From positions 80,822 to 144,821 of the forward strand of contig CAVUFJ010000011.1 of assembly GCA_963740755.1 (NCBI GenBank): DNA of 64,000 bases. Direction: 5' to 3'. Shown here one piece after another: positions 452 through 64,000 of this stretch. The notes beneath the pieces are model-generated. The model was not told the origin of the DNA and did not search any database. It was given only the letters and a program-made list of their open reading frames with translations. The position numbers were made by a program, and so were the translations under genes. Numbering within the stretch: the stretch's first letter is position 1; the number at the start of each line of letters is the position of its first letter. Source of the stretch: Rhodothermales bacterium. GTDB lineage: Bacteria > Bacteroidota > Rhodothermia > Rhodothermales > BA12.

Positions 452-750
452 TACCAGATCCGGCTGTAGCGTGTGTCATTGCGAGGAGCGCAGCGACGAA
501 GCAATCTCCCTATTCAGGGGCCGTAGGAGGGGATTGCTTCGCTGCGCTCGCAATGACAGCACCAACTCCTCCACCGGCGTTGGTATGATACCAGATCCGG
601 TGGAATCGTGAGGGATGACCGGGTCACGGATCATGGATCATGGTCAGAGACGCTCCGAGGCACCTCTGGCTATGATCCATGATCCCGCAGGCATTCCTGT
701 ACCCTTGGCCGGATTTGGGATGACGGGTGGCCTGCGCGGAGGCGTGAACG
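452..750. repeat. Composite intergenic repeat (R1). It has two direct copies of gataccagatccgg (456-469 and 587-600) around an ~87-bp imperfect hairpin (474-562), followed by a GATC-rich core gatcatggatcatggtcagagacgctccgaggcacctctggctatgatccatgatcccgcaggcattcc (628-705).
   Basis: Direct reading. The core recurs at 2647-2745, and in inverse orientation at 38343-38500 and 58108-58212. Confidence 0.7.
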
Positions 751-2539: not shown

Positions 2540-2646
2540 GCGGAAAAAGGCAGGCGCGCATCGGTACGCGTGGTTCTATGTTCAGGGGCATTCTCAGGGC
2601 AGGCCACGAGGATGCGGTTCATCCCAACGCTGGTAGCATGGGCAAG

Positions 2647-2745
2647 GATCACCGGGTTGATCCCCGATCATGGTCAGAGATGCCCCCATGTGCCCGCTGG
2701 CGATGATCCATCCTCCATGATCCCGCAGGCCTTCCCGCACCGCCC
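2647..2745. repeat. R2 copy of the GGTCAGAGA / GATC-rich repeat family, same orientation as R1
   Basis: gatcaccgggttgatccccgatcatggtcagagatgcccc...ctggcgatgatccatcctccatgatcccgcaggccttcc shares the R1 core. It is the reverse complement of the R4 core. Confidence 0.7.
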
Positions 2746-2774
2746 GGCCCGATGTGGTCTGAACCCTCCTGTGC

Positions 2775-38198: not shown

Positions 38199-38435
38199 AT
38201 GCACGTCGTTTCGCTCGATGAAGCCGGTGAGCACCTTGACGGCCTGATCGACGAGGCACTCCAAGGAAACGTGGTCATCATCAGACGCGATGATGGCTTC
38301 GTGGTACAGCTCGTGCCGGTAATCGAGCGCGATGCTACAGAGGATCTGATACCAGATCCGGCCGATGAGTACGGGAAGGTCCCCTCGATCATTGATGATG
38401 GATCATGGCCAGAGAGCACATCTGGGCGTCTCTGA
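38199..38435 (+). CDS. Orphan Phd/YefM-like antitoxin; its 3' third is encoded by repeat R3 and no toxin gene follows
   Basis: MHVVSLDEAGEHLDGLIDEALQGNVVIIRRDDGFVVQLVPV resembles Phd/YefM N-termini. Downstream ...DLIPDPADEYGKVPSIIDDGSW is the translated repeat. Confidence 0.35.
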   Translation: MHVVSLDEAGEHLDGLIDEALQGNVVIIRRDDGFVVQLVPVIERDATEDLIPDPADEYGKVPSIIDDGSWPESTSGRL

Positions 38436-38500
38436 CCATGATCAATGATCCGTGATCAACCCGGTGATCCCTGACCAAGCTACCGGAGTTGGTATGACAA
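38343..38500. repeat. R3 copy of the GGTCAGAGA / GATC-rich repeat family, inverse orientation
   Basis: gatctgataccagatccgg...gatcatggccagagagcacatctgggcgtctctgaccatgatcaatgatccgtgatcaacccggtgatcc...accggagttggtatga. Confidence 0.7.
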
Positions 38501-52400: not shown

Positions 52401-55444
<3,044 letters not shown>

Positions 55445-55673: not shown

Positions 55674-56156
55674 ATGGCCCAGCCGATTGACTTTGTGCCG
55701 CCCGCCGCACCGGGGCAGGCTGCCTTCACCGCCGCCGACGATGTGGCGCGGCTCGTCGAAACCCTCCACGACAGCGGAACGCTCCGCGTGCTCAACGGGC
55801 TCTTCGCGCGCTTCGAGGCCGTCACCGCCGTCGCGCTCGGCGGGCTCGACACGCCCGAGGGGCGGCGGGGCCTCGCCAACCTGCTCGTGGTGGCCCGACT
55901 GCTCGGCCGCATCGACACCGACGCGCTCGACCGCTTTGTGGGCGCGCTCGACAAGGGCTTCGGGGCGGCCTCCGCACGCCTCGCCAAAGACGACCCGCCC
56001 GGCACCATCGCCGTGCTCGGCAAGCTGCGCGACCCCGCCGTGCGCCGCGGCCTCGACGCCGTGCTGACGCTCCTCGGCACGCTCGGCGCCGAGGTCCACG
56101 CGCCCACGCTGCTGCCGTACTCGAACACCGACGGCAAACCCGCCGCCACGCCGTGA
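55674..56156 (+). CDS. DUF1641-domain protein, a common formate dehydrogenase accessory neighbour (B. subtilis YrhD-like)
   Basis: Intact 160 aa. Position between fdhA and fdhD. Confidence 0.65.
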   Translation: MAQPIDFVPPAAPGQAAFTAADDVARLVETLHDSGTLRVLNGLFARFEAVTAVALGGLDTPEGRRGLANLLVVARLLGRIDTDALDRFVGALDKGFGAASARLAKDDPPGTIAVLGKLRDPAVRRGLDAVLTLLGTLGAEVHAPTLLPYSNTDGKPAATP

Positions 56157-57035
56157 CCGCCGACGCCCTCCGCGACCCTGCCACCGACGCCCGCGCCCGC
56201 ACGTTCGCCGTGCAGCGCGTGCGCGCGGGCGGTATGCGCGCGGACGACGACCGCCTCGCCGTCGAGGAGCCGCTCGAAATCCGCCTCCAGTTCTGGACGG
56301 ACGACGGCGAACGGCGGCGCCTCCAGCAGAAGGCGCTCGCGCTCACGATGCGCACGCCCGGCCACGACGACGACCTCGCGGTGGGCTTTCTCGTCTCCGA
56401 GGGCGTCATTCGCGCCCCGTCCGACGTCGTACAGGTGCAGCACTGCCCCGTGCCCGACGAACTCCCGAGCCACAACGTGCTCGTCGTGCGCCTCGCCGAG
56501 ACCGCCGCCTTCGACCCGAAGCGCCTGGAGCGGCACTTCTACACCACGTCGAGCTGCGGCGTGTGCGGCAAGACCTCCCTCGAAGCCCTGGAGGTGACGG
56601 GCTGCCCGGTGCTGGCGCCCGGACCGAGGCTCGCGCCCGAGACCATCCACGCGCTTCCTGCCACGCTCCGCGCGGCGCAGGCCGTGTTCGAGGAGACCGG
56701 CGGCCTCCACGCGGCGGCGCTGTTCGACGCCGCGGGCACCCTCCTGCGCGTGCGCGAGGACGTGGGCCGCCATAACGCGGTGGACAAGCTCGTGGGCAGC
56801 TACTGGCGCGAAGGGAGCGCCGTGCCGTCCGAGACGATGCTGCTCGTGAGCGGGCGCGCGAGCTTCGAGCTCGCCCAGAAGGCGCTCATGGCCGGGATCT
56901 CGGTCCTCGCCGCCGTGGGCGCGCCGAGCAGCCTCGCCGTGGAACTGGCGGCCCGTTTCGGCATGACCGCTGCTGGGCTTCGTCCGCGACGGGCGCTTTA
57001 ACGTCTACAGCGGCGCCCACCGCCTCACCGCCTGA
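56153..57035 (+). CDS. fdhD: Formate dehydrogenase accessory sulfurtransferase FdhD, with one frameshift near the 3' end
   Basis: ...TTSSCGVCGK (catalytic Cys loop)...GRHNAVDK.... Corrected C-terminus ...[25 protein letters not shown]. Confidence 0.8.
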
Positions 57036-57048
57036 TCCTCCTCCTGCC

Positions 57049-57441
57049 GTGAAACTCCGCATCAAAGGCGACACGCTCCGCCTCCGCCTCACCCAGCCCG
57101 AAGTGGCCCTGTTCGCCGCCGAAGGCTGCGTGGAAGACGCCCTGCACGTGGCCCCCGGCGCCGCGCTGCGCTACCGCCTCTACGCCGACCCGGAGGCGAC
57201 CGCGCTCGGGGCCGTCTGGAACGGCAGTCTGCTCACCGTCGTCGTGCCGGAAGGCTGGGCGCGGCCGTGGGCGGAGGGCAACGAGGTGGGCGTCGAGGGC
57301 GCGCAGGCCGCCGGCGAGGGGCACACGCTCACCCTGCTCGTCGAGAAAGACTTTGCCTGCCTCCACGAGGCGCGCGACGAGCCCGGCGCCTTCCCCAACC
57401 CCTTCTCCGACGTGCCGGGCTACGTGGATGCGGATGACTGA
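57049..57441 (+). CDS. Hypothetical protein; its last ~17 codons (AFPNPFSDVPGYVDADD) recur in the downstream duplicated fragment
   Basis: Intact 130-aa ORF in an operon position. No recognised domain. Confidence 0.4.
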   Translation: MKLRIKGDTLRLRLTQPEVALFAAEGCVEDALHVAPGAALRYRLYADPEATALGAVWNGSLLTVVVPEGWARPWAEGNEVGVEGAQAAGEGHTLTLLVEKDFACLHEARDEPGAFPNPFSDVPGYVDADD

Positions 57442-57487
57442 CGCGCAGCGCGGCGGTGGGGCGGGGAGGGCAGACGCGGCGGGGAGC

Positions 57488-58072
57488 ATGGTCACGGCGC
57501 GCCGTGCCCCGACCCACATCCCGCCGGGCGACGTCACCGGGCTGATCCTTGCGGGTGGGCACAGCCGCCGCTTCGGGCGCGACAAGGCCCTCGCGGAGGT
57601 GGACGGCGTGCCGCTCGTGGCGCGCGTGTACGACGCCCTGGCTCCCCACTGCGCGGAGGTACTGATCGCCACCGGGGCCACGCCGCGCGCCTACCCCGTG
57701 CCCGCACGCGTCGTGCTGGATGCGGTGCCGGAGGCGGGGCCGCTCGCCGGACTCCTCGCCGGGCTGGCGGCAGCGCGCACGCCGTGGCTGCTCGTGGCCG
57801 CCTGCGACCTCGCGGGCCTCACGCCGGCCGCGCTGGCCTCGCTGCTGCGCGGGGCTGCGCCGGACGTGGACGCGGTGGTGGCCGTGGATGCAGATGGGCG
57901 GCGCCAGCCCGTGTGCGCGCTGTACCGCGCCGAGGCCGTGGCGCCGGTGGCCGCGATGCACCTCGCCGCAGGCCGCCGGGCGCTCCACGCGCTGCTCGAT
58001 GCGCTCACGGTCTGCGAGGTCGCACTCGATCCTGTGGCCCTGCGCAACGCCAACACCTCCGAAGACCTTTGA
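57488..58072 (+). CDS. mobA: Molybdenum cofactor guanylyltransferase
   Basis: LILAGGHSRRFGRDKALAEVDGVPLV...ACDLAGLTPAAL.... Confidence 0.8.
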   Translation: MVTARRAPTHIPPGDVTGLILAGGHSRRFGRDKALAEVDGVPLVARVYDALAPHCAEVLIATGATPRAYPVPARVVLDAVPEAGPLAGLLAGLAAARTPWLLVAACDLAGLTPAALASLLRGAAPDVDAVVAVDADGRRQPVCALYRAEAVAPVAAMHLAAGRRALHALLDALTVCEVALDPVALRNANTSEDL

Positions 58073-58107
58073 CCCCAACGCCGGCCGCCTGGTGCGGGAA
58101 GGTCCAC

Positions 58108-58212
58108 TGGATCATGCATCATCGCCAGAAGACCGCTCCGGGCATCTCTGACCATGATCGGGGATCAACCCGATGATCTCCCATGATGCGACCGGAGTTG
58201 GGATGACCCCTA
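58108..58212. repeat. R4 copy of the GGTCAGAGA / GATC-rich repeat family, inverse orientation
   Basis: gatcatgcatcatcgccagaagaccgctccgggcatctctgaccatgatcggggatcaacccgatgatctcccatgatgcgaccggagttgggatga. Confidence 0.7.
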
Positions 58213-59373
58213 CCGGAAAGCCTGTCGCAGCTTGCGGTTGACGGCGGCCGCGTCGAAGTGCGCCGGGTCGAAGCGCTTGCCCGCCCAGGCCTTCATCTCC
58301 CGATGCTCGGGGTGGGACGGGTCGGCGAGCACCGCGCACAGCTCCGCGTAGCCCCACGGGCCGCCGCAGTCTTCGGGCGGCCCGGCGCGCTCGCCATCGA
58401 CGCAGCGGGGGTAGACCGCGCCCGGCTCCGGCGGCGCCATCGCCTCGACCTTCACGTCGTGCACCCAGCCGTCGCCGAAGTCGTAGAGGTAGACAAAGCG
58501 GCTCCCCTTGCGCTGGATGAGGTCGGCGAGGCAGGCGCCGTCGGTCGGGAAGTCGTCCGGGCCGGGCTCGAAGTTGGTGTAGGTGGCGGTCTTCGTCTCG
58601 AAGGCGTACAGGTGGTAATTCTCCCACGCAAAGGCACTCTGGAAGACCAGGTGCAGCGCGTCGAGCGGCAGCGCGAGCGGCACGTCGAGGCGCCGCCAGA
58701 CGGGCGGCTCGGTGCCCGCGATCTCGACCCGCAGCGTGGCGATCTCGCCCCGCTCGGCGGCCCGCTGCGCCCCCGAAGAAGCCATTGTGCGGGGCGGGGG
58801 CGTGTCGAGGACCACGCGGAACCGCTCCGGCCCGTCGGTTTCTTCGAGCAGCACGCGCGTGCCCGGCGGCAAGGTGCCCGGCTCCGTCACGGTGGGGCCG
58901 TAGGGGATGAGGTCCGCCTGCGCGAGCAGGTCCTGCGATTCGGCAGAGAGCGTGCGCGCGTCGAGCACCATCCCGCCTACTGAGAGCATCCACGCGACCG
59001 GGTTGCGGTCGAGCCGGGAGGGCAGCGTCCAGCGCGGGTCGAGGGGGCCGGAGTCGAGCAGGTCGAGCACCTCGCGGCCTTTGCTGGCGCCGGTGGCCTC
59101 GCTCACGCCGCAGGCCGCGCACAGCTCCTTGAGCGTCATGTGGACGTCTCCGCTGGCCGGGTCGGAGAGGAAGTTGATGCGTCCGAGCGCGTAGAGGAGG
59201 CCGCAGGCCCAGCTTCGGGGGCGGCCCTGGGCGAGGCGGTCGGGCACGGCTTCGGCGAGGCGCGCGGCGGCGCGGCGGGCGAGCACCGCGTATTCGTCGG
59301 AGAGGAGCTCGCGGGCGAGGGCTTCGGCGAGGCGGACAATCTCCGCAGGCCGGTCTTCGGGCGGGATAGGCAT
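58210..59373 (-). CDS. Plasmid pRiA4b ORF-3-like family protein (PF07929-like C-domain) with an N-terminal DUF6398-like domain
   Basis: C-terminal ...VWRRLDVPLALPLDALHLVFQSAFAWENYHLYAF...FVYLYDFGDGWVHDVKVE...PRCVDGERAGPPEDCGGPWGYAEL. Intact 387 aa. Confidence 0.7.
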   Translation of the reverse strand: MPIPPEDRPAEIVRLAEALARELLSDEYAVLARRAAARLAEAVPDRLAQGRPRSWACGLLYALGRINFLSDPASGDVHMTLKELCAACGVSEATGASKGREVLDLLDSGPLDPRWTLPSRLDRNPVAWMLSVGGMVLDARTLSAESQDLLAQADLIPYGPTVTEPGTLPPGTRVLLEETDGPERFRVVLDTPPPRTMASSGAQRAAERGEIATLRVEIAGTEPPVWRRLDVPLALPLDALHLVFQSAFAWENYHLYAFETKTATYTNFEPGPDDFPTDGACLADLIQRKGSRFVYLYDFGDGWVHDVKVEAMAPPEPGAVYPRCVDGERAGPPEDCGGPWGYAELCAVLADPSHPEHREMKAWAGKRFDPAHFDAAAVNRKLRQAFR

Positions 59374-59454
59374 AGGAGCCGGGGCGTATCCAAAGATAAC
59401 TGGCGCTACCCACGAAAAAGCCGCCCCGGTGCAGAACCGCGTCGCGCGACGAGC

Positions 59455-59745
59455 CGGACGCCTTCCCCACCCCCTTTGCCAACGTGCCCGGCTACGTGGA
59501 TGCCGACGACGGTAGGGGCGGGGTTAACCACGCCCTACCGCATCCTGGTGCTGCCGGGCGACTTCGGGCACGACAAGGCCCTCGCACGCGTGGCCGGGGT
59601 GTCGCGCGTGGCGCGCCTCTACGACGCCCCCGCGCCCCACTGCGCCGAGGTGCTCCTCGCCACGGGCGCCGCGTGCCTCCCCGGTGGCCGCGCGTGTCGT
59701 GCTCGATAACGCCAACACCCCGGCCGATCTGTTCGGAAGCGCTTT
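59455..59745 (+). pseudogene. Decayed partial duplicate of the 57390-58072 segment (3' end of the hypothetical gene plus an internally deleted mobA)
   Basis: AFPTPFANVPGYVDADD then ...LVLPGDFGHDKALARVAGVSRVARLYDAPAPHCAEVLLATGA...NANTPADL, parallel to mobA's GGHSRRFGRDKALAEVDGVPLVARVYDALAPHCAEVLIATGA...NANTSEDL. Confidence 0.55.
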
Positions 59746-60025
59746 TTGATAAAGTACGTGCGCAGCTGAACCTGTCAGAGTGTAACGAAAGCCCTTCCAG
59801 CATTGCAACGGAAGCCCTTCCGCCCCGGCGCGTGCCTTGACAGGCCCACAAGCGGGCGGTAACGTGCCCAACCGTCGAAGCCGGTGGGTTTTGCCTGAAG
59901 GGGCAGCGCCTGCGGTGGCGCTGCGCGTCCCGCACCGGACGCCGTTGACAAGGCTTCGGCGGACGCCCTGGCGGTGCCGTCCGGCCTGCCGCCGTGTGTC
60001 TGCGCACGAATCCCGAGGTCTGTCA

Positions 60026-64000
<3,975 letters not shown>

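What the first reader, a model, noticed from the sequence alone, without database searches (positions are those of the whole stretch)
57390..59745. pRiA4b-ORF3-like gene inserted between mobA and a decayed partial duplicate of mobA
Downstream of the fdh-mobA module there is a minus-strand gene for a DUF6398 plus pRiA4b-ORF3-like protein (WRRLDVP...YLYDFGDGWVHDV...PPEDCGGPWGY). One side carries a copy of the R-family repeat. The far side (59455-59745) carries a degenerate, internally deleted second copy of the segment spanning the last 17 codons of ORF 57049-57441 plus mobA. Compare AFPTPFANVPGYVDADD...GHDKALARVAGVSRVARLYDAPAPHCAEVLLATG...NANTPADL with the original. A segmental duplication flanking a foreign-looking gene points to insertion by recombination at mobA, not to vertical inheritance. 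pRiA4-ORF3-like proteins are plasmid or island-borne and of unknown function.
Basis: seen in the sequence. Interest (0 to 1): 0.55.

Follow-up and report, generated by a model that had tools for sequence, protein, structure and literature searches.

The report
Old mobA duplication scar beside pRiA4-like gene
A decayed partial copy of the end of one gene plus mobA really does lie on the far side of an intact pRiA4b-ORF3-like gene, but it is an old, neutrally eroding recombination scar in a variable chromosomal region of a Rhodothermales bacterium, not evidence that the gene arrived recently from outside.

Summary
59438-59733 is a collinear, internally deleted copy (296 of 707 nt kept, 80-87% identical) of 57366-58072, which is the 3' end of the DUF7009 gene plus mobA. 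Between the copies lie a ~140-nt dispersed repeat and an intact minus-strand DUF6398+PRiA4_ORF3 gene. An independent metagenome contig (L013, 98.6% identical) has the same structure plus a further 18-nt deletion in the remnant.

The gene's composition is native (GC3 0.93). It has 66-69% orthologues in related Rhodothermales. In one relative (L016) it already abuts mobA convergently.

Polarised substitutions show copy 1 under purifying selection (codon positions 1/1/12) and the remnant decaying neutrally (6/7/8). The two copies are sister to each other relative to L015 and L016. So the duplication is old, arose within this lineage, and probably happened after pRiA4 was already next to mobA.

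The best mechanism is one recombination between two DNA molecules that shared this segment: either a Campbell-type single crossover or homology-facilitated illegitimate recombination. It occurred in a variable region that relatives fill with toxin-antitoxin pairs and other cargo between mobA and AdoHcyase.

The function of the pRiA4-like protein is still unknown. Overall this is ordinary and of low interest.

The parts
57049..57441 (+). DUF7009 gene (130 aa), conserved partner of fdhD and mobA. Its last ~24 codons (57366-57441) form the left end of the duplicated unit.
   Evidence: Pfam PF22668, E 3.2e-29. The order fdhD-DUF7009-mobA is also found in L001, L016, L017, L020, L097, L098 and the P0066 contig.
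57488..58072 (+). mobA-like molybdenum cofactor guanylyltransferase gene, the intact copy 1. An alternative upstream ATG at 57434 would overlap the DUF7009 stop.
   Evidence: PF12804, E 1.1e-36. TIGR02665 scores 115.6 bits, below its 151.85 cutoff. Homologues are 176-199 aa, which favours the 57488 start. dN/dS is 0.23 against L015 and L016.
57366..58072 (+). Duplicated unit, copy 1 (707 nt): DUF7009 3' end, spacer and all of mobA.
   Evidence: Boundaries come from the repeat finder, local alignment and blastn. Changes derived on this copy fall 1/1/12 by codon position, which indicates purifying selection.
58071..58209 (+). It fills the whole spacer between the convergent stop codons of mobA and pRiA4.
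   Evidence: blastn matches to 2616-2759(-), 38358-38498(+) and 588-703(-). Alignment A4 has 74% mean identity. No Rfam match. L016 has only 3 nt at this position. The repeat is absent from the relatives' loci held here.
58210..59373 (-). Intact gene for a 387-aa DUF6398 + PRiA4_ORF3 (MM3350-like) protein.
59374..59437 (.). Unique 64-nt spacer between the pRiA4 start codon and the left edge of the remnant. This is the presumed pRiA4 promoter region. The joint that created the duplication lies at about 59437|59438.
   Evidence: No similarity elsewhere in the window. 98.4% identical in L013. One of only 4 TAnnTTTG matches in the window lies at 59391-59398 on the minus strand, 17 nt upstream of the ATG. 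That is weak evidence, since 2.2 matches are expected by chance.
59438..59733 (+). Remnant, copy 2 (296 nt). A collinear, internally deleted pseudogene fragment of the DUF7009 3' end (59438-59510), spacer and mobA 5' debris with a small palindrome (59511-59561), a mobA N-terminal segment (59562-59707) and the last codons of mobA (59708-59733).
   Evidence: Changes derived on this copy fall 6/7/8 by codon position, which indicates neutral decay. It keeps the ancestral NTPADL where copy 1 has NTSEDL. Against L013 it has 4 substitutions in 293 nt plus an 18-nt deletion, compared with 2 in 1164 nt for the gene (Fisher p 0.017).
60025..64000 (+). gltB (glutamate synthase large subunit), the right-hand neighbour. 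It runs off the window, and as assembled it has an in-frame TGA at 60514 and several frame changes.
   Evidence: In-frame translation. Pfam domains of its fragment P0181. The best database homologues are only 55-65% identical and come from unrelated phyla.

Best explanation
This is a chromosomal region of a high-GC Rhodothermales bacterium; the closest named relatives are Rubricoccaceae. The conserved formate-dehydrogenase accessory block fdhA-DUF1641-fdhD-DUF7009-mobA ends in a variable stretch of accessory genes.

The DUF6398+PRiA4_ORF3 gene is an intact, selected member of that accessory stretch. It lies tail-to-tail with mobA, and it most likely sat there before the duplication. A ~140-nt dispersed repeat later landed between the two stop codons.

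The fragment at 59438-59733 is a dead second copy of the 707-nt segment 'DUF7009 3' end + mobA'. I infer that one recombination event made it, between two closely related (or sister) DNA molecules that shared this segment but differed downstream. One carried mobA-pRiA4. The other carried the segment next to what is now the gltB upstream region.

Two mechanisms give exactly this order (unit - insert - unit) with both copies starting and ending at the same points:
- a fragment circularised and integrated by a single homologous crossover (Campbell type); or
- one end recombined homologously and the other joined illegitimately at about 59437|59438 (homology-facilitated illegitimate recombination).

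The downstream copy had no start codon context of its own and was redundant. It has since drifted neutrally and lost 58% of its length through several deletions, and it is still shrinking in the population.

Shown: the duplication, its extent, the selection contrast, its age relative to L015/L016, the variable neighbourhood and the intactness of the gene.
Inferred: the one-step recombination mechanism, the order of events and any function of the protein. For function, my best guess is a DNA- or protein-binding accessory regulator, based only on the TFIIB/cyclin-like fold of its N-domain.
For: - Duplication and boundaries.
- Independent confirmation, with a further 18-nt deletion.
- Polarised differences with L014-L016 as outgroups: copy-1-derived 1/1/12 by codon position (binomial p 8e-5 for third-position excess); copy-2-derived 6/7/8 (p 0.40); contrast p 0.007.
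- The remnant keeps the ancestral NTPADL.
- Copies are sister relative to L016 (12:1:2, 6:2:1, 4:1:0) and L015 (12:2:1).
- L016 has fdhD-DUF7009-mobA followed after 3 nt by a convergent pRiA4 orthologue. Its dS of 0.56 is similar to mobA (0.74) and DUF7009 (0.41) for the same pair.
- Native composition.
- Variable content downstream of mobA, bounded by AdoHcyase(-), in L014, L015, L020, L098 and the P0066 contig. pRiA4 orthologues lie next to the same UPF0175/DUF3368 toxin-antitoxin pairs and AdoHcyase in L010 and L011.
- No tRNA, and no integrase or transposase seen between the copies.
- Both mechanisms are documented: HFIR, and circularisation plus single crossover, in PMC3240628. HFIR has been proposed for gene arrays that keep displaced downstream genes in Vibrio cholerae T6SS clusters and Rhs loci, PMC5361080.
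Against: - No relative shows the postulated 'mobA next to gltB' arrangement. Ten relatives' loci were examined and none has gltB within reach of mobA.
- The closest relatives with usable contigs are about 25% diverged in MobA. The L016 contig ends inside pRiA4, so what lies beyond it there is unknown.
- On parsimony alone, whether the mobA/pRiA4 junction is ancestral is not settled: L015, L014 and others lack it.
- The sister relationship of the two copies is unresolved against L014 (3:1:1, 2:2:3).
- The codon-position test rests on only 36 differences.
- Microhomology at the joint could not be assessed, because the partner sequence no longer exists.
Confidence: 0.55

Rival explanations
1. One reading: the pRiA4-like gene is foreign DNA (from a plasmid or island) that entered in the same event that made the duplicate. 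A donor molecule carrying a mobA-homologous anchor plus the gene recombined at the resident mobA.
For: - The unit-insert-unit structure is what such an event leaves.
- The family is frequent on plasmids.
- The mobA-downstream region is a gain/loss hotspot in relatives.
- L015, L014, L017, L020, L097 and L098 have no pRiA4 at mobA.
Against: - Composition is native.
- The nearest homologues are chromosomal, from the same order, at 66-69% identity. No plasmid copy exceeds 60%.
- L016 already has the junction, at a dS comparable to the flanking genes.
- The copies are sister to each other relative to L016, and the remnant shows no phase of selected divergence. Any donor must therefore have been a very close relative that already had mobA-pRiA4.
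Confidence: 0.22
2. The new partner at this junction is the gltB side. A segment beginning inside the DUF7009 3' end of a close relative and continuing through mobA into gltB was joined illegitimately upstream of pRiA4. This replaced the ancestral downstream genes (toxin-antitoxin pairs, AdoHcyase). The mechanism is the same as in the best explanation, but the cargo is different.
For: - Five relatives have AdoHcyase(-) downstream of mobA, and the window has none.
- No relative has gltB near mobA.
- The best database homologues of this gltB are only 55-65% identical and come from unrelated phyla, whereas fdhA and mobA have relatives at 73-80%.
Against: - The remnant is sister to the resident copy, so the donor was again a very close relative, and none with mobA-gltB is known.
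- gltB composition matches the genome.
- The gltB comparison rests on one 320-aa fragment and a word-filtered search.
Confidence: 0.15
3. Tandem duplication of the whole block (unit + repeat + pRiA4) by unequal crossing-over, followed by a deletion that removed exactly the second repeat + pRiA4 copy.
For: Tandem duplications are frequent in bacteria. The copies are sister to each other and were apparently near-identical at birth.
Against: - It needs two events, and the second must have endpoints that coincide with the mobA stop codon and the end of the block.
- No trace of a second repeat or a second pRiA4 lies downstream of the remnant.
Confidence: 0.07
4. Artefact: a mis-assembly of a metagenome-assembled genome joined reads from two strains, which created an apparent second copy.
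For: The same contig shows 1-nt frame changes in fdhA and gltB, suggesting an imperfect long-read assembly.
Against: - An independent Logan assembly of another run reproduces 58074-59901 at 98.6%, with the same order and no 1-nt indels.
- The copies differ by about 17% and by large deletions, which is not strain-level variation.
Confidence: 0.02

Closest known systems
Pfam PF07929 (Plasmid pRiA4b ORF-3-like; MM3350-like fold, PDB 2i1s) with an N-terminal PF19935 (DUF6398) domain
   Different: This copy is chromosomal, and its nearest relatives are chromosomal Rhodothermales genes. No plasmid homologue exceeds 60% identity. No function is known for either domain, so the family name says nothing about mechanism.
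Scars of homology-facilitated illegitimate recombination, or of single-crossover (Campbell-type) integration of circularised DNA. Described experimentally in Acinetobacter, Streptococcus pneumoniae, Pseudomonas stutzeri and E. coli (PMC3240628). Proposed for displaced gene arrays in Vibrio cholerae T6SS clusters and Rhs loci (PMC5361080).
   Same: A conserved host segment serves as the anchor. The result is anchor copy - extra DNA - displaced anchor copy in direct orientation, and the displaced copy is left to decay.
   Different: The event here is inferred from a single old scar (about 17% diverged, 58% deleted). Neither partner arrangement has been observed in any relative, and microhomology at the joint cannot be checked.
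Chromosomal variable regions ('genomic islets' or recombination hotspots) flanked by conserved core genes
   Same: In relatives the interval between mobA and AdoHcyase holds different cargo: UPF0175/DUF3368 and PIN/MazE toxin-antitoxin pairs, FKBP, MgtC plus glycosyltransferases, and GGDEF-EAL.
   Different: No integrase, tRNA or att-like short repeats are present. In the window the right-hand anchor (AdoHcyase) is missing and gltB stands in its place.
MITE- or REP-like dispersed intergenic repeats
   Same: The element is about 140 nt and non-coding, sits between genes, has several diverged copies on both strands, and has terminal complementarity when folded.
   Different: Only 4 copies were seen, since only one window is available. 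The fold z-scores are weak (-1.5 to -1.8). No target-site duplication or partner transposase was identified. There is no Rfam family.

Membership tests
PF07929 PRiA4_ORF3 / MM3350-like | Sequence match to the family HMM above the gathering threshold | tested here: met
   198 bits against a cutoff of 26.6; profile positions 2-171 of 173.
PF07929 PRiA4_ORF3 / MM3350-like | Fold of the solved family member 2i1s | tested here: met
   [not shown]
PF19935 DUF6398 | Sequence match above the gathering threshold | tested here: met
   89.1 bits against a cutoff of 27.2; profile positions 1-106 of 106.
MobA, molybdenum cofactor guanylyltransferase (TIGR02665 equivalog) | Score above the NCBIfam equivalog cutoff | tested here: not met
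   115.6 bits against a cutoff of 151.85. The PF12804 domain is met (126.8 against 27), and the conserved synteny with fdhA/fdhD supports the role. It is therefore called mobA-like.
Mobile genetic element (IS, transposon, integrative island) | Recombinase gene (transposase or integrase) within or next to the inserted segment | tested here: not met
   The only coding sequence between the copies is the pRiA4-like gene. The neighbours are fdhD, DUF7009, mobA and gltB.
Mobile genetic element (IS, transposon, integrative island) | Short target-site duplication, terminal inverted repeats or a tRNA attachment site | tested here: not met
   The flanking direct repeat is 296-707 nt of host coding sequence, not a short TSD. 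There is no tRNA in the window, and no terminal inverted repeats at 58073/59437 in the repeat finder.
Known anti-phage defence systems (PADLOC-DB v2) | Match to any defence-protein model | tested here: not met
   0 families at E <= 1. PHROGs also gave 0.
Pseudogene remnant (for 59438-59733) | Loss of coding capacity: start codon, essential motif, reading frame | tested here: met
   The mobA start and LAGG motif region are deleted, 324 nt in the middle are deleted, and the frame breaks after ...LLATGA.
Pseudogene remnant (for 59438-59733) | Neutral substitution pattern and raised polymorphism | tested here: met
   Derived changes fall 6/7/8 by codon position, against 1/1/12 in the live copy (p 0.007). 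There are 4 SNPs in 293 nt plus an 18-nt indel, against 2 in 1164 nt for the adjacent gene (p 0.017).
HFIR / Campbell-type integration scar | Direct duplication of a host anchor flanking the extra DNA, with both copies sharing the same end points | tested here: met
   Both copies start at 57366-57369 / 59438-59441 and end at the mobA stop region.
HFIR / Campbell-type integration scar | Microhomology at the illegitimate joint, and existence of the two parental arrangements | not testable with these tools
No relative with mobA-gltB was found among the loci fetched.

The most novel reading that the evidence does not exclude
Probability: 0.1. Interest if true: 0.45.

Novelty: new member of a known kind. 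Interest (0 to 1): 0.18.

Why it matters
It matters little beyond local annotation. The remnant should be annotated as a pseudogene fragment, not as an ORF. The case is a clean, datable example of how a conserved gene end can anchor rearrangement of accessory DNA and leave a slowly eroding scar. It also shows that a flanking duplication does not prove that the enclosed gene is the newcomer. The only threads with wider potential are the unknown function of the widespread PF07929/DUF6398 proteins and the TFIIB/cyclin-like fold of DUF6398.

Tried and rejected
- Exact look-ups of the window's own proteins (pRiA4, P0061, P0181) found no contig on record, so the source record and the sequence beyond the window could not be read.
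- The genome-contig scan with MobA returned only distant relatives (50% identity or less) and no near genome.
- The metagenome scan gave one good relative (L017, 73%) and several at 63%. None had pRiA4 or gltB near mobA.
- PADLOC, PHROGs, Rfam, tRNA and sigma-70 promoter scans were all negative.
- The literature search for pRiA4b, PF07929, MM3350 and DUF6398 gave no functional study.
- The Bacteroidetes-type -7 box TAnnTTTG occurs only 4 times in 64 kb (2.2 expected). It cannot be used as a general promoter marker here, and the copy upstream of pRiA4 is only a weak hint.
- RNA folds of the repeat and of the palindrome in the remnant are not significantly more stable than shuffles (z -1.5 to -1.9).
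- I first thought all the differences from L013 lay outside the gene. An exact recount gave 2 in the gene, one of them D369N.
- I considered an L016-like distant donor for copy 1. I rejected it because the copies are sister to each other and the changes derived on the remnant show no codon-position bias.
- I considered mis-assembly and rejected it on L013.
Full report
**What is there.** The 3' end of the window carries, on the plus strand:
- fdhA, a DUF1641-like gene and fdhD (56153-57001);
- a DUF7009 gene (57049-57441);
- a mobA-like NTP-transferase gene (57488-58072; an alternative ATG at 57434 overlaps the DUF7009 stop).

Next come 139 nt of non-coding DNA, then a minus-strand gene (58210-59373). 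After that lies a 650-nt intergenic stretch, then gltB from 60025. The minus-strand gene encodes 387 aa with full-length Pfam matches to DUF6398 and PRiA4_ORF3.

**Check of the observation.** The second copy is real. Three tools agree (repeat finder, a local alignment and blastn within the window):
- 57371-57438 matches 59443-59510 at 86.8% (E 4e-18).
- 57571-57721 matches 59562-59707 at 79.5% (E 2.5e-33).
- The last codons of mobA (58046-58068) recur at 59708-59730.

Short collinear pieces of the DUF7009-mobA spacer and the mobA 5' end lie between them. The unit is 707 nt (57366-58072), and the remnant keeps 296 nt (59438-59733). The remnant has lost the mobA start, the LAGG motif region and 324 nt of the middle of the gene.

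The spacer 58071-58209 is one copy of a ~140-nt dispersed repeat with three other copies in the window. It has no Rfam match.

The structure is not an assembly artefact. A Logan contig from another run (L013) is 98.6% identical over 58074-59901 and has the same order of parts.

**Whose genome.** The nearest MobA homologues are unnamed metagenomic proteins at 70-76% identity. Named ones are a Rubricoccaceae MAG (62%), Rubrivirga marina (61%) and Rhodothermus marinus (53%). The scan of species-representative genomes returned Rhodothermaceae and Salinibacteraceae MAGs at 50%. The organism is therefore a high-GC member of the Rhodothermales with no close sequenced relative in the collections.

**Is the gene foreign?** The evidence says no.
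- Composition: GC at codon positions 1/2/3 is 0.74/0.52/0.93, indistinguishable from fdhD and DUF7009.
- Closest homologues (69%, 69% and 67% identity) are chromosomal, with the same two-domain architecture.
- Selection: dN/dS to them is 0.46-0.50, similar to DUF7009 (0.39-0.50) and higher than mobA (0.23).
- The family is indeed frequent on plasmids (844 of 72,556 PLSDB records), but none exceeds 60% identity to this protein.

**Relatives.** The block fdhA-DUF1641-fdhD-DUF7009-mobA is conserved, with occasional inserts. What follows mobA differs in every relative:

| Locus | What follows mobA |
|---|---|
| L015 | UPF0175-DUF3368 toxin-antitoxin pair, then AdoHcyase(-) |
| P0066 contig | PIN-MazE, two more genes, then AdoHcyase(-) |
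| L098 | FKBP, then AdoHcyase(-) |
| L014 | MgtC plus glycosyltransferases, then AdoHcyase(-) |
| L020 | GGDEF-EAL, cytochrome c peroxidase, then AdoHcyase(-) |
| L017, L097, L001 | other genes |

The pRiA4 orthologues of L010 and L011 sit beside the same UPF0175/DUF3368 pairs; L010 also has AdoHcyase next to them, but with a photolyase-like gene instead of mobA on the other side. In L016 (MobA about 75% identical) fdhD-DUF7009-mobA is followed after 3 nt by the convergent 3' end of a pRiA4 orthologue. That orthologue is 62-66% identical over 73-77 aa with dS 0.56. For the same pair, dS is 0.74 for mobA and 0.41 for DUF7009. None of these loci has gltB near mobA, and the window has no AdoHcyase.

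**Age and nature of the duplicate.** Over 214 aligned positions the two copies differ at 36. I polarised these with L014, L015 and L016 as outgroups.
- 14 changes are derived in the intact copy. By codon position they fall 1/1/12.
- 21 are derived in the remnant, and they fall 6/7/8.
- The contrast gives p 0.007, and the third-position excess in copy 1 gives p 8e-5.

The intact copy has therefore stayed under purifying selection. The remnant has drifted neutrally for essentially its whole separate history. This argues that the copies were near-identical when the event happened, not that a diverged xenologue was imported. The remnant even keeps the ancestral ...NTPADL end, where the live gene has changed to NTSEDL.

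Quartet counts place the two copies as sisters relative to L016 (12:1:2, 6:2:1, 4:1:0) and L015 (12:2:1). Against L014 the result is unresolved. Third-position divergence on the live branch is about 17% and neutral divergence on the remnant is about 10%. The event is therefore old, roughly half-way back to the split from those relatives.

Decay continues. Against L013 the remnant has 4 substitutions in 293 nt plus an 18-nt deletion. The adjacent gene has 2 in 1164 nt, one synonymous and one D369N (Fisher p 0.017).

**Mechanism (inferred).** Both copies share the same left and right ends, and they flank a unique segment. That is the product expected from one recombination between two molecules that share the unit. 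Two routes fit:
- integration of a circularised fragment by a single crossover; or
- homologous recombination at one end with illegitimate joining at the other (about 59437|59438).

Both routes are documented experimentally (PMC3240628). HFIR has been proposed for natural arrays in which displaced downstream genes persist (PMC5361080).

A tandem duplication followed by a precisely placed deletion needs two events, and no trace of a second repeat or second gene exists. No recombinase, tRNA, short target duplication or terminal inverted repeats are present, so a mobile element is not indicated.

Which partner brought what cannot be settled.
- The junction shared with L016 and the sister relationship of the copies favour pRiA4 already being next to mobA.
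- The missing AdoHcyase, and a gltB whose best database homologues are only 55-65% identical and from other phyla, make it possible that the gltB side is the newcomer.

A DNA- or protein-binding adaptor role is a reasonable guess, but it is untested.

**Verdict.** This is a new instance of known things: a PF07929/DUF6398 gene in a variable chromosomal region, plus an old recombination scar decaying as a pseudogene. Interest is low.

Noticed in passing
window 52935-55417 (fdhA) and 60025-64000 (gltB): Both large genes are broken as assembled. Against L001 FdhA, fdhA reads in three frames, with switches at about 53723/53725 (an extra C in GAGCCTC) and about 54618/54632. gltB has an in-frame TGA at 60514 and further frame changes before 64000. 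These are either 1-nt indel errors of a long-read MAG assembly or real pseudogenes. The small genes between them are intact, and L013 shows no 1-nt indels over 58074-59901.
   Followed up: partly
window 60541-61500 (gltB fragment): The best database homologues are only 55-65% identical and come from unrelated phyla (Gemmatimonadales, Xanthobacteraceae, Nitrospira and others). fdhA and mobA of the same window have relatives at 73-80%. This gltB may not be a vertically inherited Rhodothermales gene.
   Followed up: partly
[not shown]
   Followed up: partly
window 588-703(-), 2616-2759(-), 38358-38498(+), 58071-58209(+): A ~140-nt dispersed intergenic repeat with a conserved core (GCATCTCTGACCATGATCG...GATCAACCCGGTGATC) and about 74% mean identity. 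It has no Rfam family and is absent from the relatives' loci held here. It is probably a lineage-specific MITE- or REP-like element.
   Followed up: partly
L014, L015, L020, L098, P0066 contig; L010/L011: Relatives share a frame in which mobA and a minus-strand AdoHcyase bound a variable stretch (toxin-antitoxin pairs UPF0175/DUF3368 or PIN/MazE, FKBP, MgtC plus glycosyltransferases, GGDEF-EAL). pRiA4 orthologues in L010 and L011 sit beside the same toxin-antitoxin pairs.
   Followed up: partly
window 59511-59540: A small palindrome, GGTAGGGGCGGGGTTAACCACGCCCTACC, lies inside the remnant where the DUF7009-mobA spacer used to be. L013 has lost its right arm through the 18-nt deletion. The L016 spacer carries similar CGCCCCTACC motifs, so this may be a small REP-like hairpin.
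   Followed up: no
L017 2931-5631 and L020 3950-5640: In two relatives 1.7-2.7 kb of extra genes separate fdhD from DUF7009. In L017 these are an EamA transporter and a metallo-beta-lactamase-fold protein, both on the minus strand. The fdh accessory block is therefore interrupted there as well.
   Followed up: no
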